This document shows positions 2,644-14,075 of a stretch of 64,000 nucleotides of DNA, one piece after another. The DNA comes from a virus: positions 1 through 64,000 of IMG/VR virus record IMGVR_UViG_3300036770_005052; one strand, written 5' to 3'. The position numbers and the translations under genes were made by a program. The number at the start of each line of letters is the position of its first letter. The stretch's first letter is position 1. A model generated the notes under the pieces. That model did not search any database, was not told where the DNA came from, and was given only the letters and a program-made list of their open reading frames with translations.

Positions 2644-3093
2644 ATGAGTTATGAAAACCCTTGGAGATTCAATGGGGAAATTTTTGAGTCTTCCGATATT
2701 CAAGATTATTTTGGTTTTGTATATCTAATATCTTGCCCTAAGACTCATCGCAAGTATTGGGGTAGAAAGTACTTTTGGTCTTTTCGAACTCCTCCTGGAA
2801 AGAAAAGAAAAGTTAGACAAGAATCTGATTGGAAGAGGTATTACGGATCTTGTCCTGAATTGAAACAAGACATAAAACAGTATGGTAAAGAGTTTTTTAA
2901 TAGGGAAATTATAAGTCTTCACAAAACAAAAGCGGATTGTAACTATGAAGAGACAAAACAGCTCTTTCTAAATAATGTGTTGAAGGAATCACTTGACGAT
3001 GGAACACCGGCGTTCTATAATAGCAATATTCTTGGGCGCTATTTGAGAAAAGACTATGGTAACTTTAGAAGAGACTCTTCAAACAACTCATGA
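2644..3093 (+). CDS. GIY-YIG-like nuclease
   Basis: GFVYLI...KYWGRK variant of the GIY-YIG motif, YYGS, conserved Glu and Asn. Confidence 0.65.
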   Translation: MSYENPWRFNGEIFESSDIQDYFGFVYLISCPKTHRKYWGRKYFWSFRTPPGKKRKVRQESDWKRYYGSCPELKQDIKQYGKEFFNREIISLHKTKADCNYEETKQLFLNNVLKESLDDGTPAFYNSNILGRYLRKDYGNFRRDSSNNS

Positions 3094-3236: not shown

Positions 3237-3941
3237 ATGCAAATTGATCTTCATAACTTTTTTAAACATTTTGATGAGAAGAATCCAAAACACATTGCAG
3301 CAGTAGAGCAATTTGAGAAGGATCTTCTTGCAAAAGCATCAGACTTAATGGAAGATGATGCTAATTGGGTAAGAATTTTTAGAACAAAAATAGAAGCACC
3401 AAAAACTCCAGGAACTCTTCAAGTTCCATTTTTTCCACAGACAGATAATTACAGAGATGCCGATCGAACCTGTAATTCATCTGCCTGTGCAATGTGTCTT
3501 GAGTACTTTAAACCAGGAACACTTGTAGGATCAAAGGGCGATGATGCATACGTTCGCAAAGTATTCGCAGTTGGCGATACAACTGATCACACCGTACAGA
3601 CAAAAGTTCTTACGTCTTATGGTATTTCTTCACGATTTAGTTACAATTTGTCTTTTGCTGATCTTGATCGGGAGCTTGCCGCTGGCAGACCTGTTGTTAT
3701 CGGTATTCTTCATAGGGGTTCTTTATCTGCACCTACTGGTGGGCATATGCTTGTAGTAATCGGCAAGACACCCTCTGGCGATTATGTTGTGAATGACCCT
3801 TATGGTAGTTTGAATGATGGTTATACTGGACCTGTAACTAACGGTAGAGGTGCTGTATATAAGAAATCAGATCTTTCTAGACGCTGGTGCCCTGCGGGAA
3901 ATGATGGATGGGGGAGAGTATTTGATGCAAAAAAGTCGTGA
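3237..3941 (+). CDS. Peptidase C39-like (papain-fold) cell-wall protein
   Basis: VPFFPQTDN..C(NSSA), GGH(MLV) and VNDPYG catalytic motifs. Confidence 0.85.
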   Translation: MQIDLHNFFKHFDEKNPKHIAAVEQFEKDLLAKASDLMEDDANWVRIFRTKIEAPKTPGTLQVPFFPQTDNYRDADRTCNSSACAMCLEYFKPGTLVGSKGDDAYVRKVFAVGDTTDHTVQTKVLTSYGISSRFSYNLSFADLDRELAAGRPVVIGILHRGSLSAPTGGHMLVVIGKTPSGDYVVNDPYGSLNDGYTGPVTNGRGAVYKKSDLSRRWCPAGNDGWGRVFDAKKS

Positions 3942-4402
3942 AGATTCCAAATTCTGGAATCAGGTTAATTAAAGAATTTGAAGGTTGCCATCTAAAGGCA
4001 TATCCAGATCCTTTAACTGGAGGGCTTCCAATTACAATTGGGTGGGGAAGCACAAGAGACTTTGACTATACTCCATTTAAGAGAGATCGAGTCATTGCGC
4101 AAGAATACGCTGACCGTCTTTTAGAACACGATATATTGAATCGTTTTCTCCCCAAATTATCCAAGATTCCTTATTGGAGTGAAATGAATGAAAGACAACA
4201 AGGAGCATTGCTTTCTTTTTCTTATAATCTTGGTGCTGATTTTTTTAACTCTCCTGGATTCAATACGATTACCAAAAAGTTAAGAGAAAAAGACTGGAAA
4301 GCAATTCCTGCAACTCTTGAAATGTATCGCAATCCTGGTAGTAAGGTAGAGGCAGGACTTTTACGTAGAAGAAAGGCAGAAGGAAAACTCTGGGTTTCTT
4401 AA
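3938..4402 (+). CDS. GH24 phage lysozyme (endolysin domain)
   Basis: IKEFEG, AYPDP..TIGWG, ALLSFSYNLG, GLLRRRKAE. Confidence 0.9.
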   Translation: MKIPNSGIRLIKEFEGCHLKAYPDPLTGGLPITIGWGSTRDFDYTPFKRDRVIAQEYADRLLEHDILNRFLPKLSKIPYWSEMNERQQGALLSFSYNLGADFFNSPGFNTITKKLREKDWKAIPATLEMYRNPGSKVEAGLLRRRKAEGKLWVS

Positions 4403-4662
4403 TCTTCTATTTTAGTTCTTAGAGCAATTACAGTTGTTAAAATTGCCAATAAAGTTTCATATCCTCTTCTCTCAGATTCCTTACAATCTAGGGGAGGAGG
4501 ATTTTTCAATCCACCTAATACATTTGCACTAATGATAGATCCTGGAATCATAAAGTTGCAAGCAATAAAATTCAATCCAACAAAACCAACTGCTGATATA
4601 CAGACAATAAAGATGAGTTTGCTTAGATTGATTTTCATCTTCCTTCTTGTTGGTGAATCCAA
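4399..4662 (-). CDS. Small membrane protein
   Basis: Hydrophobic N-terminal and C-terminal segments; convergent with the lysozyme gene. Confidence 0.55.
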   Translation of the reverse strand: MDSPTRRKMKINLSKLIFIVCISAVGFVGLNFIACNFMIPGSIISANVLGGLKNPPPLDCKESERRGYETLLAILTTVIALRTKIED

Positions 4663-5036: not shown

Positions 5037-5678
5037 ATGCAAAGTATCTTTACAGTAACCCTGCCTCTTTTGGCAACGGTTACAACCAGTACGGCATCAC
5101 TGCCTTCAGTGTTTCCTCCTCCACCTGTGAGTGGTCCTCCACCGTTTTCTATCATTCAAGAGGAGCCTACATCAAAGACAGCAATCCGCGAGGTTGCTCC
5201 CGAAAAACCTAAAGAGACAAGGTTAATTTGTAAAGGGTGTAATGAACATGAGAATGCTACCCTGGCGTTTTTCCAGGATCGTGGTATTAAAGACAGAAAC
5301 GCCCTCGCTACCATCATGGGCAATATTCGTCAGGAATCTACTTTTATTCCTAACATTTGTGAAGGTGGTAGCAGAACCAGTTGGCGTAATTGCAGTGGCG
5401 GTTACGGACTGATTCAATGGACATCTGCCAACCGTTATTATGGATTGGGTGATTTTGCTAGGAAGTTTGGTGGTTCGCCATCATCACTTCACACGCAACT
5501 TCGTTATCTTACGAATGAAGTCCAATGGAAAGAGATTGAAGACCGAATGAAAATTCCCGGTAAGTCTATCAATCGTTATATGGACTATGCGTATAGTTGG
5601 ATTGGATGGGGGCATCATGGTGCTCGTACATCTTATGCTTATGATTATGCATCCCGTCTGATCAAGGTAGAAGTTTAA
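5037..5678 (+). CDS. Secreted phage-tail-lysozyme-like cell wall hydrolase
   Basis: Signal peptide, Pro-rich linker, ALATIMGNIRQES and GYGLIQWT motifs. Confidence 0.8.
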   Translation: MQSIFTVTLPLLATVTTSTASLPSVFPPPPVSGPPPFSIIQEEPTSKTAIREVAPEKPKETRLICKGCNEHENATLAFFQDRGIKDRNALATIMGNIRQESTFIPNICEGGSRTSWRNCSGGYGLIQWTSANRYYGLGDFARKFGGSPSSLHTQLRYLTNEVQWKEIEDRMKIPGKSINRYMDYAYSWIGWGHHGARTSYAYDYASRLIKVEV

Positions 5679-6466: not shown

Positions 6467-6540
6467 GCCTCAGTAACTCAGTGGACTAGAGTATCCGCCT
6501 TCTAAGCGGTTAGCCGTTGGTTCGAATCCAACCTGAGGCG
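6467..6540 (+). tRNA. tRNA-Arg(TCT)
   Basis: Cloverleaf; anticodon loop CT-TCT-AA; TTCGAAT T-loop. Confidence 0.93.
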
Positions 6541-6593
6541 CTTGACTTTTTGAGAAAAAAGTCTTATAAATAAAAACACTTAGGTCGAAAACA

Positions 6594-6695
6594 ATGTCTT
6601 ACCCAATGCCCACAAAACAGTTTAGTATTCTCGATTGCCGCTATTGGCATATTGAGGGTGCTCCCCTGTTTGCGGATATGGATAGACATATGTAA
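6594..6695 (+). CDS. 33-aa peptide with its own promoter and terminator
   Basis: MSYPMPTKQFSILDCRYWHIEGAPLFADMDRHM; TATAAATA at 6565; terminator downstream. Confidence 0.5.
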   Translation: MSYPMPTKQFSILDCRYWHIEGAPLFADMDRHM

Positions 6696-6716
6696 GATAT
6701 GTAATTCATAAAAGCA

Positions 6717-6755
6717 AAGAGGGGAGAGAAACCAAAAAGTTTCCTCCCCTTTTTT
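6717..6755 (+). terminator. Intrinsic terminator
   Basis: AGGGGAG..GAAAC/GTTTC-CTCCCCT stem followed by a T run. Confidence 0.7.
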
Positions 6756-6881
6756 GTTGCTTGTGACAGTTTCCTAAGTGTCCACCAATCTCCCCCCAGA
6801 GACCAAACGGTGGTATTCTAATCAAGTGGTCGAGAGAGACCACACCGAACCTAGACAACCGAATATTTATCCATATTATGT

Positions 6882-6953
6882 GGGACATTAACTCAGCGGT
6901 AGAGTATCCGGCTTTTAACCGGTTAGTCCTCGGTTCGAATCCGAGATGTCCCA
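6882..6953 (+). tRNA. tRNA-Lys(TTT)
   Basis: Cloverleaf; CT-TTT-AA loop. Confidence 0.92.
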
Positions 6954-6957
6954 TCGT

Positions 6958-7048
6958 GGGAGAGTGCCTACTGTCGGCAATACGTGTAGGAGCGGTCTGT
7001 AAAACCGTCACATAGGAACCATCGGGGGTTCGATTCCCTCCTCTCTCA
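6958..7048 (+). tRNA. tRNA-Tyr(GTA) with enlarged D-arm
   Basis: GGGAGAG/CTCTCTC acceptor; GCGGT-CTGTAAA-ACCGT arm; long variable region. Confidence 0.8.
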
Positions 7049-7094
7049 CTGCATGATCTGCCCAATGATACCATTGGTAGTGGATTGTGCTCTT

Positions 7095-7167
7095 GACCCT
7101 ATAGTGAAGTGGTCTATCACGCCTACCTGTCTAGTAGGAATCTGGGATTCGAATTCCCATAGGGTCG
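7095..7167 (+). tRNA. tRNA-Asp(GTC)
   Basis: Cloverleaf; CCTAC-CTGTCTA-GTAGG. Confidence 0.88.
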
Positions 7168-7168
7168 T

Positions 7169-7343
7169 TGGAGATCATCAGTACGAATCTCCACGCATTC
7201 TTCAGAGGTTGCCAGTTTGCAGAAGAATGTCGTAGTAATAACTGGAATTGGGGAGGGATTCCTAACCACCATCGGATGATGGCAGGATTCATAAGGCTAC
7301 GAAGCGTAATCCGTAAGTAACTTCGTGTGGGATACCCCTCTCA
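7169..7343 (+). ncRNA. Non-tRNA structured RNA(s) with predicted pseudoknots
   Basis: Hairpin 7169-7193; stem GCAUUCUUC/GAAGAAUGU with CCAGUU/AACUGG pairing; closed multibranch 7250-7343. Confidence 0.5.
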
Positions 7344-7346
7344 TCT

Positions 7347-7421
7347 GGTCCTATCGTCTAGTGGTGAGGACATCACTCTTTCACAGTGAAGACACGGGTT
7401 CAAATCCCGTTAGGACTACCA
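7347..7421 (+). tRNA. tRNA-Glu(TTC)
   Basis: Cloverleaf; encoded CCA. Confidence 0.93.
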
Positions 7422-7422
7422 T

Positions 7423-7494
7423 CCAGGAGTAAGTCAGCGGTAGACGGCACCGTTTGGGGCGGTGAAGACGTTGGTTCAAATCCAACCTTCTGGA
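7423..7494 (+). tRNA. tRNA-Pro(TGG)
   Basis: CACCG-TTTGGGG-CGGTG anticodon arm. Confidence 0.9.
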
Positions 7495-7497
7495 CTT

Positions 7498-7571
7498 GGG
7501 AACATAGCTCCAATTGGTAGAGCACATGATTGAAGATCATGGTGTTATCGGTTCAAATCCGATTGTTCCCT
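7498..7571 (+). tRNA. tRNA-Phe(GAA)
   Basis: CATGA-TTGAAGA-TCATG. Confidence 0.92.
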
Positions 7572-7586
7572 CTTGACCTTATGGTC

Positions 7587-7686
7587 ACGGAGATTCACTT
7601 CCTCCGTTATGAAACTTCGGTTGGTTAGTGATAGGTTTTTCAGTCCGAAAACTGAAACTGGTAGGTTGTTGATATCGACTCCTACC
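7587..7686 (+). ncRNA. Non-tRNA structured RNA, three hairpins with two possible pseudoknot pairings
   Basis: ACGGAG/CUCCGU, UUUCAGU/ACUGAAA and GGUAGG/CCUACC stems; UCACU/AGUGA and UUCGG/CCGAA cross-pairings. Confidence 0.45.
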
Positions 7687-7691
7687 TTGAT

Positions 7692-7763
7692 GGAATCGTA
7701 GCTCAGTGGTAGAGCACACCCCTGATAAGGGTGCGGTCACAAGTTCAAATCTTGTCGGTTCCA
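7692..7763 (+). tRNA. tRNA-Ile(GAT)
   Basis: CACCC-CTGATAA-GGGTG. Confidence 0.93.
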
Positions 7764-7766
7764 CTT

Positions 7767-7856
7767 GGGAGAGCACCTTGGTTGGTGGGTACGACGGTAT
7801 CAGAGACGGTTCGATTCCGTCCATTGGCAATGGTGGTTCGATTCCACCCTCTCCCA
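7767..7856 (+). ncRNA. tRNA-like RNA with two T-arm-like hairpins
   Basis: Perfect GGGAGAG/CTCTCCC+A acceptor stem; GACGG-TTCGATT-CCGTC and GGTGG-TTCGATT-CCACC. Confidence 0.65.
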
Positions 7857-7860
7857 ACTT

Positions 7861-7932
7861 GGCAGTGTAGTTCAGTGGCAGAACAAGAGATTCATACCCT
7901 CTATGTCGGTAGTTCAATTCTACCCACTGCCT
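7861..7932 (+). tRNA. tRNA-Met/Ile2(CAT)
   Basis: Cloverleaf; TT-CAT-AC loop. Confidence 0.85.
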
Positions 7933-7933
7933 T

Positions 7934-8005
7934 GTGTCGTTAGCCTAGTGGTCAAGGCATCTGTTTGTGAAACAGAGGAGATGAGTTCAATTCTCATACG
8001 ACACC
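7934..8005 (+). tRNA. tRNA-His(GTG)
   Basis: TCTGT-TTGTGAA-ACAGA; C discriminator. Confidence 0.9.
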
Positions 8006-8007
8006 CC

Positions 8008-8081
8008 GTTCGGGTGGCAGAGTGGTCGAATGCGGAAGTCTGCAAAACTTCTTATCGTGGGTTCGAATCCCACCCTGAACT
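8008..8081 (+). tRNA. tRNA-Cys(GCA)
   Basis: GAAGT-CTGCAAA-ACTTC; U discriminator. Confidence 0.92.
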
Positions 8082-8086
8082 CCTAA

Positions 8087-8158
8087 TCCAGAATCGACTA
8101 ATTGGCAGGTCAGCACCCTTTGAAGGTGTACGTCTAGGTTCGAATCCTAGTTCTGGAA
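8087..8158 (+). tRNA. tRNA-Gln(TTG)
   Basis: GCACC-CTTTGAA-GGTGT; U1-A72. Confidence 0.92.
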
Positions 8159-8161
8159 CTT

Positions 8162-8235
8162 GTCCGTGTAGCCCAATTGGAAGAGGCACCACCTTGAGGG
8201 GGTGGGTGTTGGAGGTTCGAGTCCTCTCACGGACA
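8162..8235 (+). tRNA. tRNA-Leu(GAG), short variable loop
   Basis: CCACC-TTGAGGG-GGTGG; 5-nt variable loop; A73. Confidence 0.85.
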
Positions 8236-8238
8236 TAT

Positions 8239-8312
8239 GCCCGATTGATGGAATTGGCATACATACTTGCCTTAGAAGCAAGGTTTTACAGGTTCGAATC
8301 CTGTATCGGGCA
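8239..8312 (+). tRNA. tRNA-Leu(TAG), short variable loop
   Basis: CTTGC-CTTAGAA-GCAAG; 5-nt variable loop; A73. Confidence 0.88.
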
Positions 8313-8316
8313 CCTT

Positions 8317-8388
8317 GTTGGGATGGTGTAATTGGTAGCACGGAAATCTCCAAAATTTCTAGTTAGGGTTCAAGTCCCTATCCCTTCG
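8317..8388 (+). tRNA. tRNA-Trp(CCA), two U-U mismatches in the acceptor stem
   Basis: GAAAT-CTCCAAA-ATTTC; acceptor GTTGGGA/TCCCTTC. Confidence 0.8.
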
Positions 8389-8391
8389 CCT

Positions 8392-8468
8392 GCCCTCTTA
8401 ACTCAGTGGACCAGAGTGCTTGGCTACGAACCAAGAAGTCGCAAGTTCGAATCTTGCAGAGGGTGCCA
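8392..8468 (+). tRNA. tRNA-Arg(ACG)
   Basis: Cloverleaf; encoded CCA. Confidence 0.93.
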
Positions 8469-8505
8469 TTTAAATCTAAATAGCAACGAGAGGTGTGATA
8501 GGAAA

Positions 8506-8976
8506 ATGGAATTAGTAGAACCACATTCAACTATACTAGTTCTGAATAGTTCTTACGAGCCACTACACTTCACTAATTGGAAACGTGCAATTGGTTTACT
8601 TTTTAAACAGAAAGCAAAACTTATCTCCAAGAGAATTATTCGTTTGGTAAATTATGTGAAACTTCCATTTTCCTATGGGAAATCCAATTACCCAACGAGA
8701 GCACTCATCTATAAACGGGATGATTATGAGTGTCAGTATTGTGGGTCTAAAAATGACCTTACAATTGACCATATAATTCCCCGCTCAAAAGGTGGTCAAG
8801 ATACTTGGGATAATTTAGTTGCTTGTTGCACATCTTGTAATCTTAAAAAAGGAAATAAACTTCTTAAAGATACTAATATGGTCTTAAAAAGTATTCCACA
8901 AGCACCAATTAGTAGAGTGATACTTGATATTCAGAAAACAAAAGTTTCTGAATGGAAGGACTATTTGTTTCAGTAG
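8506..8976 (+). CDS. HNH endonuclease (McrA-like)
   Basis: VLNSSYEPL, RDDYECQYCG, LTIDHIIPRSKGG..W.NLVACC..CN; the longer ORF-track start runs through tRNAs. Confidence 0.88.
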   Translation: MELVEPHSTILVLNSSYEPLHFTNWKRAIGLLFKQKAKLISKRIIRLVNYVKLPFSYGKSNYPTRALIYKRDDYECQYCGSKNDLTIDHIIPRSKGGQDTWDNLVACCTSCNLKKGNKLLKDTNMVLKSIPQAPISRVILDIQKTKVSEWKDYLFQ

Positions 8977-9070
8977 GGGGTTGACAAATTTTTGAAAATA
9001 CCCTAATATATAAAAGACAGAGGTTAAGTCCCTGATATGTCCTTGAGGCATACCACACTTAACCCTTCAT

Positions 9071-9145
9071 CGTGGGGAAGTGTAACGGTTGCACAGAAGT
9101 CTCATAAGCTTCAGGTAGGTGGTTCAACTCCACCCCCCGCCTCCA
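9071..9145 (+). tRNA. tRNA-Met(CAT), initiator-like 1:72 mismatch
   Basis: C1xC72; CT-CAT-AA loop; encoded CCA. Confidence 0.85.
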
Positions 9146-9149
9146 ATTT

Positions 9150-9222
9150 GGGGAATTAGCTCATTTGGTAGAGCACCGCTTTTGCACGGCGGGGGTGAGG
9201 AGTTCGAGTCTCCTATTTTCCA
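9150..9222 (+). tRNA. tRNA-Ala(TGC)
   Basis: G3-U70; TT-TGC-AC loop. Confidence 0.92.
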
Positions 9223-9273
9223 CTGGGGAAGTGATCCTGCGGATTCGTCCAAGAGCTCTCCTTCTCCTTATAT

Positions 9274-9346
9274 TCCACACGACCGAGCAAGCGAACGGGC
9301 CCGTCTGTTAAACGGAGATAGCTAGGGGCAGTACCTAGGTGTGGAG
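9274..9346 (+). tRNA. tRNA-Asn(GTT) with non-canonical D/T loops
   Basis: TCCACAC/GTGTGGA acceptor; CT-GTT-AA; T-arm CTAGG-GGCAGTA-CCTAG. Confidence 0.8.
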
Positions 9347-9394
9347 TTTCTAACCTTTAAAATATTATAAATAATAATAAAGTTGGAGGTTAGA

Positions 9395-9937
9395 GTGTCT
9401 AGTAAAGCAGTAGTTGAATTTCGTCAAAGAAGAAAAAGATGGGCAGTTGAAGCATTTGGTGGTAAGTGTGGTATTTGTGGATATAATAAATGTGTTGAAG
9501 CATTGGATTTTCATCATATTGATCCTACACAAAAAGATTTTACCTTAACAGCATCAGTAGCAAATCGACAAATATTTGTTGAAGAACTTAAAAAGTGTGT
9601 TTGTTTGTGCTCTAATTGCCATCGTGAAGTTCATTCTGGCGTTACACAAATTCCCGATAATATATTAAAATTTGATGAAAGTTTTTCTAATAAACCTGTA
9701 CCAGAAAAACCAAAACATCCTTGTAAAGAGTGTGGAAAACTAACAACAGTTAATCATCTATTTTGCTCAATAAAATGTTCTAATAAAAATAAAGAAGTTG
9801 CCAAGTGGCCAAATAATCAAGAACTACAAAAGTTAGTTGATGAATATGGTTATCGAGGAACTGGTAGAATGTTTGGAGTTAGTGATAATGCGGTTAGAAA
9901 AAGATTGCAGAAACGAGGACTATTGACATCTGTTTGA
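9395..9937 (+). CDS. HNH homing-endonuclease-like protein with Zn finger and C-terminal HTH
   Basis: GGKCGICGY..ALDFHH..CLCSNCHREVH; GTG start after GGAGG; late promoter at 9366. Confidence 0.82.
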   Translation: MSSKAVVEFRQRRKRWAVEAFGGKCGICGYNKCVEALDFHHIDPTQKDFTLTASVANRQIFVEELKKCVCLCSNCHREVHSGVTQIPDNILKFDESFSNKPVPEKPKHPCKECGKLTTVNHLFCSIKCSNKNKEVAKWPNNQELQKLVDEYGYRGTGRMFGVSDNAVRKRLQKRGLLTSV

Positions 9938-9960
9938 GAATATGATAATATATAGATATT

Positions 9961-10080
9961 GGAAGGTCTGGAAATGTCTGGGTCTTCCTTTCTAAATCCT
10001 AACCTTGTTAGGTCGGGGATTTGATCACCCCCGCCAGTTGCAGAAAGTGTCTTCTGCGGGTGTCGGGCACTCGATACCCA
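9961..10080 (+). ncRNA. Multi-hairpin RNA ending in a kissing-loop pair
   Basis: Five hairpins; loops AGUGUC and GGCACU are complementary; promoter TTGACA(9923)..GATAAT upstream. Confidence 0.6.
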
Positions 10081-10083
10081 TTT

Positions 10084-10155
10084 GCCCTTGTAGCTCAGTG
10101 GTAGAGCAACGGTTTTGTAAACCGTTGGTCGCTGGTTCAAATCCAGTCGGGGGCT
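10084..10155 (+). tRNA. tRNA-Thr(TGT)
   Basis: ACGGT-TTTGTAA-ACCGT. Confidence 0.93.
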
Positions 10156-10233
10156 TGACATAATACCCATTATGTCTTATACTTCATATGTCCGTGTGAA
10201 GTGAAGTGCTGGGAGAGTCAAATCTCCCATTTT

Positions 10234-10305
10234 GCGGAGTTAGTTCAGTGGTAGAACGCTATCCTTCCAAGTTAGATGTCGTCGGTTCGAATCCGATACT
10301 CCGCT
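10234..10305 (+). tRNA. tRNA-Gly(TCC)
   Basis: GCGGAGT/ACTCCGC; CT-TCC-AA. Confidence 0.92.
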
Positions 10306-10362
10306 TTCCCCAAAATCATGGGGATACTAAATAATACTCGTAGTTGTAAATCTTAATACAAT

Positions 10363-11247
10363 ATGACTTTTCAAAATATTATTACTGCTAGTGTAGTTGC
10401 TACGACTTCTTTGGTTGCGCCTGCGATGGCGCAAGTCACTAGCGTTAAGCAACTGAGTGATGTTCAACCTACTCAGTGGTCTTATCAAGCAATCACTAAT
10501 TTGGTAGAGCGTTACGGTTGTGTTGCTGGTTATCCTAATGGCACTTTCCGTCCAGGTCAACCTGCAACTCGTGCCGAACTTGCTACTCTGACTAATGCTT
10601 GTCTTGATCGCATTAGTGAGTATCAAAGTGCTGCTGATGCTGCTCTTGCTTCTGCTCTTCGTGCTGAATTTGCCAAAGAACTCGCTGTTACCAATACTCG
10701 CGTGTCCGCTCTCGAAGTTGCCACTGCTCAAAAAGCTCAAGGTGTTGGTAACTATGTTGGTGTTGGCGTTCTTCTCAATCAGCAAGGCACTGCTGGTAAC
10801 GGTTTCAGTGCTCAGCGTACCATCTCCGGTGCTACCGTTCAGGCACGTTATGCCGTGAAGAACTTCACCAATCTGAATGCTGTTTCGGTTCGTCCTTATG
10901 CTAGCTTCGTAGGCACTCCTGCTGGTCAGTTGGGTTCTGGTGGTGGTGCTCTGGTGTCTTATGACTGGAGCATCTCTCGTGCCAAGTCTGGTGCGAGCCG
11001 TGCTAACGTCTACACTGGTGTTGGTTATCAGATCCCCTTCGTAAACAACACTGCTGCTAACTTCCAGTCTGCTGTTGGCAATCGTGGTCAAGTTGTTCTT
11101 GCTCTTGGTGTCGAAGGTCGTATCACTAACTCTCTGGTTGGTTTTGCTGATCTCAAGTTCCCTACCACCAATGCTTCTAATAGCTATGGTGTTACTAACG
11201 GAACTTATTCACCCGTATTCACTACTGGTTTGGGCATTAAGTTCTGA
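10363..11247 (+). CDS. SLH-domain outer membrane protein (cyanobacterial porin-like N-terminus, short beta-barrel)
   Basis: Signal peptide; QVTSVKQLSDVQPTQWSYQA..LVERYGCVAGYP..TRAE; C-terminal Phe. Confidence 0.85.
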   Translation: MTFQNIITASVVATTSLVAPAMAQVTSVKQLSDVQPTQWSYQAITNLVERYGCVAGYPNGTFRPGQPATRAELATLTNACLDRISEYQSAADAALASALRAEFAKELAVTNTRVSALEVATAQKAQGVGNYVGVGVLLNQQGTAGNGFSAQRTISGATVQARYAVKNFTNLNAVSVRPYASFVGTPAGQLGSGGGALVSYDWSISRAKSGASRANVYTGVGYQIPFVNNTAANFQSAVGNRGQVVLALGVEGRITNSLVGFADLKFPTTNASNSYGVTNGTYSPVFTTGLGIKF

Positions 11248-11328
11248 TATTTTAATACGTAGTGTAAATTGGGGGGAGTTGACAACGACTCCCCTTTTTA
11301 GTATAATAGGTATTGAATCAGGAGGTTT

Positions 11329-11487
11329 ATGTCTCTCATTTCTCAAATGGACCGTGAAATGGTCATTGAAGCACTTGAGTATTATATTGATAAATTAAAA
11401 GAAGATAATTGCACTCAAGCATCTATTACGGTGTTTAATACTCTTCTTCGCTGGATTGAACTAGAGCATTTTAAAAATGAAAATTAA
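11329..11487 (+). CDS. Hypothetical protein (52 aa)
   Basis: AGGAGG RBS; MSLISQMDREMVIEALEYY... Confidence 0.7.
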   Translation: MSLISQMDREMVIEALEYYIDKLKEDNCTQASITVFNTLLRWIELEHFKNEN

Positions 11488-11641
11488 TCTCTGGTACTGT
11501 AAAGATATGAATCTTTGGCGTTGGACTCTGATTGATGATCATCGACCAATAGTAAAACAAGAGTCTGGACAGAGAGAAAATCTACGAGATGCCATGAATG
11601 ATGTGGCTAATACAGTAGAATATCTTATGGGTCAGTTTTGA
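11477..11641 (+). CDS. Hypothetical protein (54 aa)
   Basis: MKINLWYCKDMNLWRWTL...; overlaps the upstream stop. Confidence 0.65.
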   Translation: MKINLWYCKDMNLWRWTLIDDHRPIVKQESGQRENLRDAMNDVANTVEYLMGQF

Positions 11642-11649
11642 CTTTTTAT

Positions 11650-11722
11650 GCCCGATGACCCAGCTAGTGAAGGGACCTGCCTTACAAGCAGGCAGCGGTA
11701 GGGGCGGAACCTATATCGGGCA
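11650..11722 (+). tRNA. tRNA-Val(TAC) with non-canonical D/T loops
   Basis: GCCCGAT/ATCGGGC; CCTGC-CTTACAA-GCAGG; T-arm GTAGG-GGCGGAA-CCTAT. Confidence 0.82.
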
Positions 11723-11751
11723 CTTTTATAAATACCTAAAAAACTGGTATA

Positions 11752-12186
11752 ATGGAAAAGTTATATAAATTACTTTCTGATACTCAAGCAACTCTTTTTA
11801 TGTTGTTTCAGAAAACTTGGGTCTATCACTGGAATGTGGTGGGTTCGGAGTTTTATCAGTTTCATAAAGTCTTCGGTAAACAATACGAAGAAATGTTTGA
11901 AGAGATTGATCGGCTCACAGAGCACATGAGATACCTGAAAATTAAACCTGTTAGCACTCTCACAAGAATTACTGAAGTTTCTCACGTTCTCGAAGCAAAT
12001 AACAAGCTTGATGATGTGGGAATGGTAAAAGACTTGATTGCTGATAACGAAACTTTGGTTGGTCTTTTTAAACAAGTTGCCGAAGAAGCAGAATTGCAAA
12101 AATCAAGAGGCACTACAAATCTTGTTGATGATTTGAATGAATCACACGGAAAATTTATCTGGATGTTAAGATCTTTTACTGAATGA
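11752..12186 (+). CDS. dps: Dps family ferritin-like DNA protection protein
   Basis: HWNVVG..F..FH..F..QY......ID.L.E and H.K..WML motifs. Confidence 0.9.
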   Translation: MEKLYKLLSDTQATLFMLFQKTWVYHWNVVGSEFYQFHKVFGKQYEEMFEEIDRLTEHMRYLKIKPVSTLTRITEVSHVLEANNKLDDVGMVKDLIADNETLVGLFKQVAEEAELQKSRGTTNLVDDLNESHGKFIWMLRSFTE

Positions 12187-12192
12187 AATACG

Positions 12193-12450
12193 ATGGAAAA
12201 TTTAAGAATCAGATGTCGCTCCTGTGGAAAGGAGTTAGAAGGGCATCCAACGAAAACTGTGACTTGTGGTTGTCCAAATATGGCAACTATTCGTGGAGAT
12301 AAGATTTCGGCAGTTGACTTGGACAACATAGTTATGCTAAACTCTTATCATAGAAAATCAAAGTCTGGTGTTCTCACTAACGAAGACCTTGCTTTTCAGG
12401 AAGCAAGAAGGCAACGTAAAGTAAGAAGACTTGATTTTGAAGTCCGTTGA
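12193..12450 (+). CDS. Zinc-ribbon hypothetical protein
   Basis: CRSC...CGC motif. Confidence 0.7.
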   Translation: MENLRIRCRSCGKELEGHPTKTVTCGCPNMATIRGDKISAVDLDNIVMLNSYHRKSKSGVLTNEDLAFQEARRQRKVRRLDFEVR

Positions 12451-12460
12451 GGACTTTATT

Positions 12461-12547
12461 GGAGAGTCAAACCGATAGGTGACGGTAGCTGTCTTGAAAA
12501 CAGTCGAGGTGTTAAAGCCCTTAGGCGTTCGATTCGCCTACTCTCCG
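12461..12547 (+). tRNA. tRNA-Ser(TGA)
   Basis: GGAGAGT/ACTCTCC; CT-TGA-AA; long variable arm. Confidence 0.92.
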
Positions 12548-12660
12548 TTACAAATATTACAAAATTTTAGATTTTTTTAATCTATATTTGAGTATCAACA
12601 CAAACTTGACAAGTTGAAACTATCGATTAGTATAACTAGTAGTATTCAACTTAAAACCTT

Positions 12661-12813
12661 ATGGATCAGCACACCTATGAGAACTGGGTGAAGATCAAGG
12701 AGACATTCGAATCTTCTGGTAACACTAACAATATGTTCTATAAAAGAGCAGTTGAAATTGTAAAAACCAGAAAAGATCCTTTGGCAAAATTTCTTGGAGA
12801 TGAGAAGTGGTGA
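12661..12813 (+). CDS. Hypothetical protein (50 aa)
   Basis: MDQHTYENWVKIKETFESSGNTNNMFYKRA...; TTGACA/TATAAC promoter upstream. Confidence 0.7.
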   Translation: MDQHTYENWVKIKETFESSGNTNNMFYKRAVEIVKTRKDPLAKFLGDEKW

Positions 12814-13010
12814 AACCTCAAGATGAATTGGTAAGTCGTTATGAAGTTCAGGGGATGATTGATGCAGCAATACGACGACACAATCGTAATGCTTCTATCA
12901 TTAGTATGTGCATCGGTTGGGTGGTTCTTGCTTTATTTGCTGAGGGACTCCTCCGACTGGTAGGTGTTATTCCACCATTATTACCGTTTTTAAAATTCAC
13001 GTTAAATTAA
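12807..13010 (+). CDS. Small membrane protein
   Basis: IDAAIRRHNRNASIISM followed by a hydrophobic helix. Confidence 0.7.
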   Translation: MVKPQDELVSRYEVQGMIDAAIRRHNRNASIISMCIGWVVLALFAEGLLRLVGVIPPLLPFLKFTLN

Positions 13011-13182
13011 CTATGTTAGAAGAAGATTATAAAGAACTTTATGATCTTATACAAAAACTAAAAATGCAAGAATTATTTGAAGAACCATCTACTTACGAAG
13101 ACGAGGAAGATGATTAAAACTGTTATATCTTCAATTTTACTTTTTTCTTCAATTATATTGTTTATCTGTTGGGGATTAACTA

Positions 13183-13377
13183 ATGCTTACCCACACTAAG
13201 CAAAGATATAATTTTGCTATGACTTGCTTTGTGAGGTCTTATGGCAGAAGAGTTTTGAATGATGAAAGTATCAAACAATTTTGCAAAGAGTGGTCTGAGT
13301 GGGATATAAATGCTCCACTAGACGATAGTGTAGATCAATACTTTCATTATGAATATAAGAATTGGAGAGGAGTATGA
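13183..13377 (+). CDS. Hypothetical protein
   Basis: 64-aa ORF in a run of small coupled ORFs. Confidence 0.55.
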   Translation: MLTHTKQRYNFAMTCFVRSYGRRVLNDESIKQFCKEWSEWDINAPLDDSVDQYFHYEYKNWRGV

Positions 13378-13511
13378 TTTTTCATATAGTAGAACTACTT
13401 GCATCAAATCCAGTATGGATAGGACTATGTGGAGGTGGATTAATTATTCCACCTATCATAGGTATAATGATTATACATAATAATAAACAAAAATAATTTA
13501 ATTAAAAATTT

Positions 13512-13949
13512 ATGGCAACCGTTAATTATACTATTACTAACTCAGTAAAAGATAGCTGGACTGGATATTTTGAAGTAAGTAGCTTATCTAGTACTGTAAG
13601 CGATTATAATTCAATTAGTGCTATTGGAGCTGGTACTGGATTATTTTCTTTTACTCCAACTCAGTTTGAAATGTATCCTGATAATCCAGGTACTAATGTA
13701 GGTAGAACTTATGTTACTTGGAGAAGTATTGCCTTTCCTGGAGAACAGTTTCCATCTTCTGGCTATAGTTTTGATATTTGGTCTGAGGGATTATATACTG
13801 CAATTAATTCTGGTGCAACATGGAGTACATTGATTAGTACTGGAACTTATAGTCTTTCAAATAATAAATGGACAGTAGTTTATAATTATGATCCTCCGTA
13901 TCCATTATTTCATGGACAGAATGGTACAATTACTTTTACTGCTGGATAA
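13512..13949 (+). CDS. Hypothetical Ser/Thr/Tyr-rich beta protein
   Basis: 145-aa ORF with phage-like codon use. Confidence 0.6.
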   Translation: MATVNYTITNSVKDSWTGYFEVSSLSSTVSDYNSISAIGAGTGLFSFTPTQFEMYPDNPGTNVGRTYVTWRSIAFPGEQFPSSGYSFDIWSEGLYTAINSGATWSTLISTGTYSLSNNKWTVVYNYDPPYPLFHGQNGTITFTAG

Positions 13950-14001
13950 TGTAGATTGACAATTCACGTTTATGGGAGTATAATTACTTCCATAAACATT
14001 A

Positions 14002-14075
14002 CGGGGTGTAGCGCAGTTTGGTAGCGCATCCGCTTTGGGAGCGGGAGGTCGTAGGTTCGAATCCTATCACCCCGA
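14002..14075 (+). tRNA. tRNA-Pro(TGG), canonical host-like copy
   Basis: CGGGGTG/CACCCCG; TT-TGG-GA; own TTGACA/TATAAT promoter. Confidence 0.95.

What the first reader, a model, noticed from the sequence alone, without database searches (positions are those of the whole stretch)
3911..3961. Complete -1 ribosomal frameshift signal that would fuse the C39 peptidase to the lysozyme
Seen: the C39 ORF ends GCA AAA AAG TCG TGA, placing A_AAA_AAG in frame at 3929-3935. An SD-like GGGGAG lies 12 nt upstream. A 7-bp hairpin GAUUCCA-AAUUC-UGGAAUC starts 7 nt downstream. The lysozyme ORF is in the -1 frame and has only a GTG start with no properly spaced SD. Known: this three-part layout is the dnaX/IS3-family -1 frameshift signal. 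Inference: the locus makes both a stand-alone peptidase and a peptidase-muramidase fusion (...DAKKVVKIPNSG...) at a set ratio, i.e. a recoded lysis module.
Basis: partly seen in the sequence, partly recalled or inferred. Interest (0 to 1): 0.82.

Follow-up and report, generated by a model that had tools for sequence, protein, structure and literature searches.

The report
Frameshift-joined cyanophage peptidase-lysozyme lysin
At the end of a cell-wall peptidase gene in this freshwater T4-like cyanophage sits an intact ribosome-slipping signal that very probably fuses part of the peptidase output to the lysozyme behind it; the signal is conserved in dozens of related phages, but here the lysozyme also has its own start codon, so the fusion is probably one of three products rather than the only route to lysozyme.

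Summary
Observation confirmed. GCA AAA AAG TCG TGA puts A_AAA_AAG (3929-3935) in the correct phase. GGAG lies 12 nt upstream, a 7-bp hairpin starts 7 nt downstream, and the GH24 lysozyme is in the -1 frame with a GTG start in a GTGA overlap.

Alone these are weak: the heptamer is not enriched in the window, and the hairpin is -8.5 kcal/mol (z about -1.9). The comparative evidence is strong. All 37 distinct related junctions whose lysozyme has no start codon carry the in-phase heptamer. All 15 without it have a start. The -1 linker keeps frame over nine lengths. Several unrelated strong 3' stem-loops show compensatory changes. Natural in-frame fusions are common. S-PM2's full lysozyme has no start.

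The window belongs to a subtype with an NTGA start, a short linker and a weak hairpin, but with a GGAG created by a rare GGG codon (14/16 against 3/52 elsewhere). Its nearest relatives L007 and L008 lost GGAG and degraded the heptamer. Close relatives also carry the lysozyme as a separate gene.

Most likely there are three products: peptidase, a 388-aa fusion and free lysozyme. No protein data exist, and I found no published record. This scan had already noted the family-level frameshift on other genomes.

The parts
3237..3941 (+). Zero-frame ORF: papain-like (Peptidase_C39_2) cysteine peptidase, 234 aa; the short product
   Evidence: Pfam E 7.9e-12. Invariant Q68/C79/H170/D187 in a 92-sequence alignment. 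AF2 pLDDT 92.8. Foldseek best matches are the C39-like peptidase 3erv, Alr0975 and the pseudomurein endoisopeptidase PeiR.
3911..3916 (+). SD-like GGGGAG (GGAG 3913-3916) inside the conserved Trp-Gly-Arg codons, 12 nt 5' of the slip site; putative 5' stimulator
   Evidence: It needs the rare Gly codon GGG, which is used in 14/16 members of this junction subtype, 3/52 of the hairpin type, 0/5 with a broken heptamer and 0/13 without a lysozyme. The spacing lies within the 9-14 nt reported for -1 frameshifting (PMC5009743).
3929..3935 (+). Slippery heptamer A_AAA_AAG in zero-frame phase
   Evidence: It is in phase in 72 distinct related junctions. Within the window's subtype its three third positions rank among the 9 of 350 most conserved codon triples.
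3939..3941 (+). Zero-frame stop TGA of the peptidase, overlapping the GTG of the lysozyme (GTGA)
3943..3961 (+). 7-bp hairpin GAUUCCA-AAUUC-UGGAAUC, 7 nt 3' of the heptamer and 3 nt 3' of the GTG; weak putative 3' stimulator, or a modulator of coupled initiation
   Evidence: -8.5 kcal/mol, z -1.87. The same stem is in L018, L020 and L092. 5-6 bp versions occur in L009, L016 and L045. It is absent in S-SRM01.
3926..4402 (+). -1 frame open stretch; from the slip site it reads K-K-V-V-K-I-P-N-S-G... into the GH24 lysozyme, giving a 388-aa fusion
   Evidence: The window's peptidase and lysozyme match positions 1-235 and 245-404 of a single PHROG family of 405 positions.
3938..4402 (+). GH24 lysozyme ORF with its own GTG start (154 aa); probable third product by coupled re-initiation
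   Evidence: Pfam E 3e-22. The same position is ATG, GTG or TTG throughout the subtype. A 90-91% identical lysozyme is a separate ATG-started gene behind a YkuD-domain gene in L087, L089 and L091.

Best explanation
The locus is a two-enzyme cell-wall lysin module expressed through a dnaX-type programmed -1 ribosomal frameshift. Most ribosomes translating the papain-like peptidase terminate at TGA 3939 and give a 234-aa peptidase. A fraction slip back one base on A_AAA_AAG (3929-3935), where tRNA-Lys(UUU) re-pairs from AAA-AAG to AAA-AAA. The slip is helped by the GGAG 12 nt upstream pairing with 16S rRNA and perhaps by the 7-bp hairpin 7 nt downstream. These ribosomes read on in the -1 frame and make a 388-aa peptidase-GH24 lysozyme fusion. 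In this subtype, ribosomes terminating at the GTGA overlap can probably also re-initiate at GTG 3938 and make free 154-aa lysozyme, so the locus gives three products. What is shown: the sequence elements, their conservation and co-variation in relatives, the dependence of many relatives on the slip, and the existence of in-frame fusions. What is inferred: that slipping happens in this phage, its efficiency, the role of each stimulator, and the peptidoglycan-cleaving function of the peptidase.
For: Family level. (1): among distinct junctions, 37 with no ATG/GTG/TTG before the catalytic Glu all carry the in-phase heptamer, and 15 without the heptamer all have a start (14 ATG). (2): peptidases not followed by a lysozyme end right after GWGRxF and have no heptamer. 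(3): the -1 frame linker has nine lengths (45-84 nt), all multiples of three, is rich in S/T/P/Q/N, and has no stops. The codon before AAA encodes A, V, E or T but always ends in A. (4): three or more unrelated stem-loops begin 3-8 nt after the heptamer (dG -16 to -29 kcal/mol, z to -7.7). In a 19-sequence alignment, 4 of 14 pairs show compensatory changes. 98.9% of cells are paired, against 29-47% when the partners are slid, and 0/500 shuffles reach this. The stem is kept while the loop varies from 8 to about 35 nt. (5): the S-PM2 full-length lysozyme frame has no start, and the junction is identical in two records. (6): there are over 100 clusters of in-frame peptidase-lysozyme fusions, and one PHROG family spans both window ORFs. 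(7): L086 keeps the heptamer and a hairpin but is followed by a GH19-like domain. (8): S-CAM7 uses U_UUU_UUU at the same place.

Window level. All three elements are intact. Heptamer third positions rank among the 2.6% most conserved triples in the subtype. GGG, which creates GGAG, is used in 14/16 of the subtype against 12% of Gly codons overall. In the nearest clade, WIN, L009, L092 and L020 keep GGAG, the heptamer and a hairpin, whereas L007 and L008 lost GGAG together with heptamer integrity. The SD spacing of 12 nt falls within the 9-14 nt range (PMC5009743). The phage encodes tRNA-Lys(UUU) and no Lys(CUU). There is no sigma-70-like promoter between the two starts.
Against: There is no protein, ribosome-profiling or reporter evidence for any member. 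In this subtype the lysozyme has a start codon. The closest relatives tolerate loss of the heptamer (L007 GCA GCA AAG; L096 deleted the whole DAKKS tail) or replacement of the peptidase gene (L087), so the fusion is not essential here. The window's hairpin is weak and is absent in S-SRM01. The GGAG association rests on few independent lineages: only 4 supported contrasts, not significant. The heptamer alone is common in this A-rich genome. The host's tRNA-Lys complement is unknown.
Confidence: 0.65

Rival explanations
1. Relic signal. The family ancestrally used the frameshift, but in the window's subtype the lysozyme is made only by coupled initiation at the NTGA overlap. The heptamer persists by descent or because it encodes Lys-Lys, and slipping is at noise level with no function.
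For: The start codon is conserved in the subtype, with ATG the most common. 3' structure is weak or absent in most members. L007 lost the heptamer, L096 deleted it, and L087, L089 and L091 have a stand-alone lysozyme 90-91% identical to the window's. A few other Lys columns are as invariant as those in the heptamer.
Against: The heptamer is intact in 16/17 distinct members, and its codon triple is in the top 2.6% for third-position conservation. The rare GGG codon that makes GGAG is specifically enriched here and is lost together with the heptamer in L007 and L008. A_AAA_AAG is intrinsically the most shift-prone heptamer in E. coli (PMC5009743).
Confidence: 0.25
2. Transcriptional slippage. 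RNA polymerase adds one A in the A6 run, giving a subpopulation of mRNAs in which peptidase and lysozyme are in one frame. The protein product would be identical to that of ribosomal slippage.
For: The site is a homopolymer run. S-CAM7 has a T8 run at the same place. L085 is a DNA-level A7 variant. Transcriptional slippage is an established alternative in IS elements and Thermus dnaX (PMC5009743).
Against: The run is only six A. From my knowledge of the literature (not retrieved here), efficient bacterial transcriptional slippage needs about eight or more. The motif is strictly A6 followed by G, in one codon phase. It is accompanied by 3' stem-loops at frameshift-type spacing and, here, by an SD-like element at 12 nt, which are features of ribosomal and not of polymerase slippage.
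Confidence: 0.06
3. Artefact or chance. The apparent split is a homopolymer sequencing error in a gene that is really an in-frame fusion, or the three elements coincide by chance at an ordinary overlapping gene pair.
For: A-run errors are common. L085 differs from frameshift-type loci by one A. The heptamer and hairpin are individually unremarkable.
Against: The same A6 state is found in 72 distinct junctions from many independent assemblies and in two separate S-PM2 records. The zero-frame stop, the stems and the linker co-vary with it.
Confidence: 0.02

Closest known systems
E. coli dnaX tau/gamma -1 frameshift cassette
   Same: It has the same heptamer A_AAA_AAG, an internal SD-like sequence upstream (9-14 nt range; 12 nt here) and a 3' stem-loop, and gives two products of fixed ratio from one locus (PMC5009743). 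The review also mentions dnaX variants in which the long product comes from the shift and the zero-frame stop follows the site directly, as in the S-PM2-type junctions.
   Different: In E. coli the shift makes the shorter product. The dnaX stem has 11 bp and is strong, whereas the window's has 7 bp and is weak. The gene class is different: a phage cell-wall hydrolase rather than a polymerase subunit. Here the downstream domain can also be started independently.
Phage lambda G/GT and other tail-assembly chaperone frameshifts
   Same: It is a phage-encoded -1 slip near the end of a short ORF that makes a minor fusion product alongside a major short product (PMC5009743).
   Different: The slip site is different (G_GGA_AAG in lambda, from my knowledge). 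The products are assembly chaperones, not enzymes. The downstream part has no independent start.
IS3-family (IS911) orfA/orfAB/orfB
   Same: It uses A_AAA_AAG with an upstream SD-like stimulator and 3' structure. From my knowledge of the literature (only partly covered in PMC5009743), IS911 also makes a third product, OrfB, by independent initiation next to the slip site, which parallels the window's GTG-started lysozyme.
   Different: It is a transposase, not a lysin. In IS911 the SD serves both roles at proper spacing. In the window GGAG is 21 nt from the GTG, too far to act as an initiation SD.
In-frame two-domain cyanophage endolysins (ACG-2014f gp211; phrog_3617; reverse order in S-CREM1, phrog_10051)
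   Same: They have the same two catalytic domains and the same kind of linker, and are homologous at 57-83% identity.
   Different: They are a single ORF that gives one product. The window splits the domains by one base and adds a slip site.

Membership tests
dnaX-type programmed -1 ribosomal frameshift cassette | Slippery heptamer X_XXY_YYZ in zero-frame phase inside the overlap of the two frames | tested here: met
   A_AAA_AAG is at 3929-3935 in phase. The -1 frame is open from 3926 and the zero-frame stop is at 3939.
dnaX-type programmed -1 ribosomal frameshift cassette | Internal SD-like sequence 9-14 nt 5' of the slip site | tested here: met
   GGAG at 3913-3916 is 12 nt upstream. The range is taken from PMC5009743. 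It is enriched in this subtype at 14/16 against 3/52, but the independent-contrast test is not significant.
dnaX-type programmed -1 ribosomal frameshift cassette | Stable 3' stem-loop or pseudoknot about 5-9 nt after the slip site | tested here: inconclusive
   The window has a 7-bp stem at +7 with -8.5 kcal/mol and z -1.87. The subtype consensus is only 6 bp and -4 kcal/mol. Relatives of the other junction type meet the feature clearly, with 10-14 bp stems and compensatory changes.
dnaX-type programmed -1 ribosomal frameshift cassette | Conservation of site, phase and -1 ORF in homologues beyond what coding requires | tested here: met
   There are 72 distinct junctions with the in-phase heptamer. 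The preceding codon always ends in A whatever the amino acid. Nine linker lengths all preserve the frame. No start-less lysozyme lacks the heptamer.
dnaX-type programmed -1 ribosomal frameshift cassette | AAG decoded by a single tRNA-Lys(UUU) in the translating cell | not tested
   The phage encodes tRNA-Lys(UUU) at 6881-6955 and no Lys(CUU). The host is unknown and its tRNA set was not examined.
dnaX-type programmed -1 ribosomal frameshift cassette | Trans-frame protein actually produced | not testable with these tools
   No proteomic or ribosome-profiling data are available, and the literature searches found none.
GH24 phage lysozyme (PF00959) | Profile match over cut-off with the catalytic Glu motif | tested here: met
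   E 3e-22, 79.7 bits against a cut-off of 22.3. The EFEG motif is conserved in all relatives.
Peptidase_C39_2 / papain-like cysteine peptidase (PF13529) | Profile match, papain-like fold and Gln/Cys/His/Asp catalytic set | tested here: met
   E 7.9e-12. Q68, C79, H170 and D187 are invariant in 92 sequences. The model has pLDDT 92.8 and matches 3erv and other papain-like folds. The substrate (peptidoglycan stem peptide) is inferred, not tested.

The most novel reading that the evidence does not exclude
The window represents an evolutionary intermediate between a recoded fusion lysin and two separate genes. One 30-nt junction sets the stoichiometry of three products (peptidase, peptidase-lysozyme fusion, free lysozyme). 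In this lineage the 5' rRNA-pairing GGAG has taken over from the 3' stem-loop as the frameshift stimulator. The family would then show interchange of stimulator types, slip sites (A_AAA_AAG or U_UUU_UUU) and even downstream hydrolase domains (GH24 or GH19) around one conserved recoding site.
Probability: 0.35. Interest if true: 0.7.

Novelty: new member of a known kind. Interest (0 to 1): 0.6.

Why it matters
Programmed -1 frameshifting is well understood, but I found no published or annotated case in a phage lysis enzyme. If confirmed, it explains why the lysin of the model cyanophage S-PM2, and of S-CAM7, has been annotated as a truncated stub, with the catalytic half left unannotated. It would correct the gene models of many Kyanoviridae genomes and metagenomic contigs. 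It would also give a natural series (in-frame fusion, frameshift-dependent, frameshift plus own start, fully split, partner-swapped) in which to study why a phage tunes the ratio of a peptidase to a peptidase-muramidase. The window itself adds the intermediate form with its own start codon and an SD-type stimulator.

Tried and rejected
(1) Judging the signal from the window alone was not informative. The heptamer count is at expectation and the hairpin z is about -1.9.

(2) A 50-nt fold window missed the longer-range stems of S-PM2-like junctions. Refolding 75 nt recovered them.

(3) The test of the GGAG/weak-hairpin trade-off by phylogenetically independent pairs had only 4 supported contrasts and was not significant, so the association is reported as suggestive only.

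(4) The careful ML tree did not finish in the time allowed. A quick IQ-TREE tree was used and the rooting is arbitrary, so I do not claim a direction of change between junction types.

(5) A sequence search of the PDB with the peptidase found nothing. Fold search was needed.

(6) Literature searches for a frameshift in cyanophage or any endolysin found only tail-chaperone cases.

(7) GGAG as an initiation SD for GTG 3938 was rejected because the spacing is 21 nt.

(8) Non-canonical starts (ATT/ATC/CTG) for start-less lysozymes were considered. Candidates are not at conserved positions, and L059 has none at all.

(9) A sequencing error at the A-run was rejected.

(10) The host tRNA-Lys complement was not examined, because no host genome handle was available for a virus record.

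Full report
**What is there.** The window is the first 64 kb of a 119.6-kb IMG/VR virus contig, about 52% complete. Its nearest named relative at this locus is the freshwater Synechococcus myovirus S-SRM01 (81% nucleotide identity), followed by S-PM2 (70%).
- ORF 3237..3941 is a 234-aa Peptidase_C39_2 protein, and ORF 3938..4402 is a 154-aa GH24 Phage_lysozyme.
- The peptidase ends GCA AAA AAG TCG TGA, so A_AAA_AAG (3929-3935) is in X_XXY_YYZ phase.
- The -1 frame is open only from 3926.
- GGAG (3913-3916) lies 12 nt upstream of the heptamer.
- GAUUCCA-AAUUC-UGGAAUC (3943-3961) lies 7 nt downstream.
- The lysozyme GTG overlaps the stop as GTGA.

A slip gives ...DAKKVVKIPNSG... and a 388-aa protein.

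**Significance of the window alone.** It is low. AAAAAAG occurs 33 times against 39 +/- 6 expected. The hairpin is -8.5 kcal/mol with z -1.87. GTGA and ATGA overlaps are ordinary.

**Comparative evidence.** Two scans of IMG/VR, one with the peptidase and one with the lysozyme, plus GenBank phages gave 102 distinct junctions.
- Start codons and the heptamer: 37 junctions with no ATG/GTG/TTG in the lysozyme frame before the catalytic Glu all carry the in-phase heptamer. The 15 without the heptamer all have a start, 14 of them ATG. There is no start-less lysozyme without a heptamer.
- Peptidases with no lysozyme behind them end just after GWGRxF and have no heptamer.
- The codon before AAA encodes Ala, Val, Glu or Thr but always ends in A.
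- After the heptamer the -1 frame reads an S/T/P/Q/N-rich linker of nine different lengths (45-84 nt to the catalytic Glu codon). All lengths are multiples of three, and all run into IP..G..LIKEFEG.
- S-PM2 has GAT GCA AAA AAG TAA. Its full-length lysozyme frame has no canonical start, and GenBank annotates only a 72-aa C-terminal stub. The junction is identical in two independent records.
- S-CAM7 is analogous but uses an in-phase U_UUU_UUU in a T8 run.
- In-frame peptidase-lysozyme fusions are abundant: more than 100 clusters of 395-410 aa, ACG-2014f gp211, and the reverse order in S-CREM1. The window's two ORFs match positions 1-235 and 245-404 of one PHROG family.
- L085 is a frameshift-type locus with one extra A.
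- L086 keeps the heptamer and a hairpin but is followed by a GH19-like domain.

**RNA structure.** Junctions in which the zero-frame stop follows the heptamer directly carry strong stem-loops that start 3-8 nt downstream, in at least three unrelated sequence versions.
- Version 1: GAAUCAACACCACA/UGUGGUGUUGAUUU.
- Version 2: ACGCCAACUAAC/GUUAGUUGGCGU.
- Version 3: CUCUACUCC/GGAGUAGAG, which includes S-PM2.
- Folding energies are -16 to -29 kcal/mol, with z down to -7.7.

In 19 sequences of the first version, 4 of 14 pairs show compensatory changes. 98.9% of cells pair, against 29-47% when the partners are slid, and 0 of 500 shuffles reach the observed values. In the second version the stem is kept while the loop varies from 8 to about 35 nt.

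**The window's own subtype.** The window belongs to a subtype of 16-17 distinct members, mostly one supported clade (SH-aLRT 95). In this subtype:
- the zero frame runs two codons past the heptamer;
- the stop TGA overlaps an ATG, GTG or TTG;
- the linker is minimal;
- 3' structure is weak (median -10.5 kcal/mol over 75 nt against -17.7; consensus 6 bp, -4 kcal/mol).

The heptamer is intact in 16 of 17 members. Its three third positions are among the 9 of 350 best-conserved codon triples, while most other conserved Lys columns mix AAA and AAG.

The Gly codon of the conserved Trp-Gly-Arg is the rare GGG in 14 of 16 members, which creates UGGGGGAGA with GGAG 12 nt from the slip site. The corresponding counts are 3/52 in the hairpin type, 0/5 where the heptamer is broken and 0/13 without a lysozyme. 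GGG is 12% of Gly codons in these genes. The review of Atkins et al. gives 9-14 nt as the stimulatory spacing for -1 shifts (PMC5009743).

In the window's nearest clade, WIN, L009, L092 and L020 have GGAG, the heptamer and a 6-8 bp hairpin. L007 (GGA; GCA GCA AAG) and L008 (GGT; A_AAA_AAA) have lost GGAG and canonical heptamer integrity together. This co-variation argues that the elements work as one unit. However, only four phylogenetically independent contrasts are available and the formal test is not significant.

**Evidence that the fusion is dispensable here.**
- L096 has deleted the whole DAKKS tail and keeps only an ATGA overlap.
- S-SRM01 keeps only the heptamer.
- In L087, L089 and L091 a lysozyme 90-91% identical to the window's is a separate ATG-started gene behind a YkuD (L,D-transpeptidase-fold) gene that replaces the C39-like peptidase in the same synteny.

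**What the proteins are.** The peptidase has invariant Gln68, Cys79, His170 and Asp187. Its model is confident (pLDDT 92.8). The fold is papain-like and is nearest to a C39-like peptidase (3erv), to the gamma-glutamyl-cleaving Alr0975 and to the pseudomurein endoisopeptidase PeiR. Its replacement by a YkuD-domain protein in L087 fits a role on the peptide part of peptidoglycan. That role is inferred, not shown.

**Mechanism proposed.** Peptidase and lysozyme are co-transcribed: there is no sigma-70-like promoter between their starts. Most ribosomes terminate at 3939. A fraction shift -1 on A_AAA_AAG, stimulated mainly by GGAG-rRNA pairing and perhaps by the hairpin, and these make the fusion. 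Terminating ribosomes may re-initiate at GTG 3938. The phage supplies tRNA-Lys(UUU). Rivals are a relic signal with coupling only (0.25), transcriptional slippage (0.06) and artefact (0.02).

**Novelty and earlier notes.** I found no paper describing a frameshift in a cyanophage lysin or in any endolysin. This scan's earlier AI notes report the same family-level frameshift on at least nine other genomes, all for start-less lysozymes. I reached the family-level result independently before reading them. I used them for two leads: S-CAM7, which I checked here, and the review PMC5009743, which I read here. What this window adds is the subtype with its own start codon and an SD-type stimulator.

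Noticed in passing
L087:983-1492 (also L089, L091): The synteny is the same as in the window (SegE-like endonuclease, 58-aa ORF). However, the C39-like peptidase is replaced by a 169-aa YkuD / L,D-transpeptidase-domain protein (Pfam E 3.7e-10), joined by an ATGA overlap to a lysozyme 90-91% identical to the window's. The partner of the lysozyme can therefore be swapped between two folds that act on peptidoglycan peptides.
   Followed up: partly
L086:3193-3750: The same peptidase, heptamer and a 9-bp hairpin are present, but the -1 frame continues into a GH19-like domain (PF00182, E 4e-4, below cut-off) instead of GH24. The downstream domain has been exchanged behind a conserved slip site.
   Followed up: partly
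L169:2078-2170 (Synechococcus phage S-CAM7): The peptidase ends W-G-R-V-F-F-P-Q-stop, with an in-phase U_UUU_UUU inside a T8 run and a GUAGAACC/GGUUCUAC stem. The lysozyme frame is start-less, and GenBank annotates only a 90-aa 'lysin' stub. A different slip site sits at the same junction.
   Followed up: partly
L002:2169-2678 (S-PM2) and L171: The S-PM2 'putative lysin' S-PM2p157 is annotated as 72 aa from an internal ATG. The 169-codon open frame that contains the catalytic N-terminal half is unannotated in both records.
   Followed up: yes
L085:3180-3200: An in-frame 395-aa fusion differs from frameshift-type loci by one extra A (GTA AAA AAA GTA GAA) and still carries the 3' stem (-23 kcal/mol). 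It is either a natural one-base 'fix' or a homopolymer error.
   Followed up: partly
window 4399-4662 (- strand): An 87-aa ORF that converges on the lysozyme stop has a hydrophobic segment and a conserved ...GGLKNPPPLDCKESERRGYETLL... motif. It is conserved at the same position in S-PM2 (L002 2675-3025) and in L087. It has no Pfam or PHROG match. It may be a lysis-associated membrane protein.
   Followed up: partly
window 6467-14075: There are 21 tRNA genes, 16 of them packed in 6467-8468. They include tRNA-Lys(UUU) at 6881-6955 and no tRNA-Lys(CUU).
   Followed up: no
window 2644-3093: A SegE-type GIY-YIG homing endonuclease (Pfam E 5e-51) lies directly upstream of the lysin module. S-SRM01 has a homing endonuclease at the same place on the other strand, and S-CAM7 has a GIY-YIG protein there that is annotated as NAD synthetase.
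   Followed up: no
window 5037-5678: A second muralytic gene (Phage_lysozyme2, E 8.7e-15) has a hydrophobic, Pro-rich N-terminus. Earlier notes of this scan mention a structured leader ahead of its homologues.
   Followed up: no
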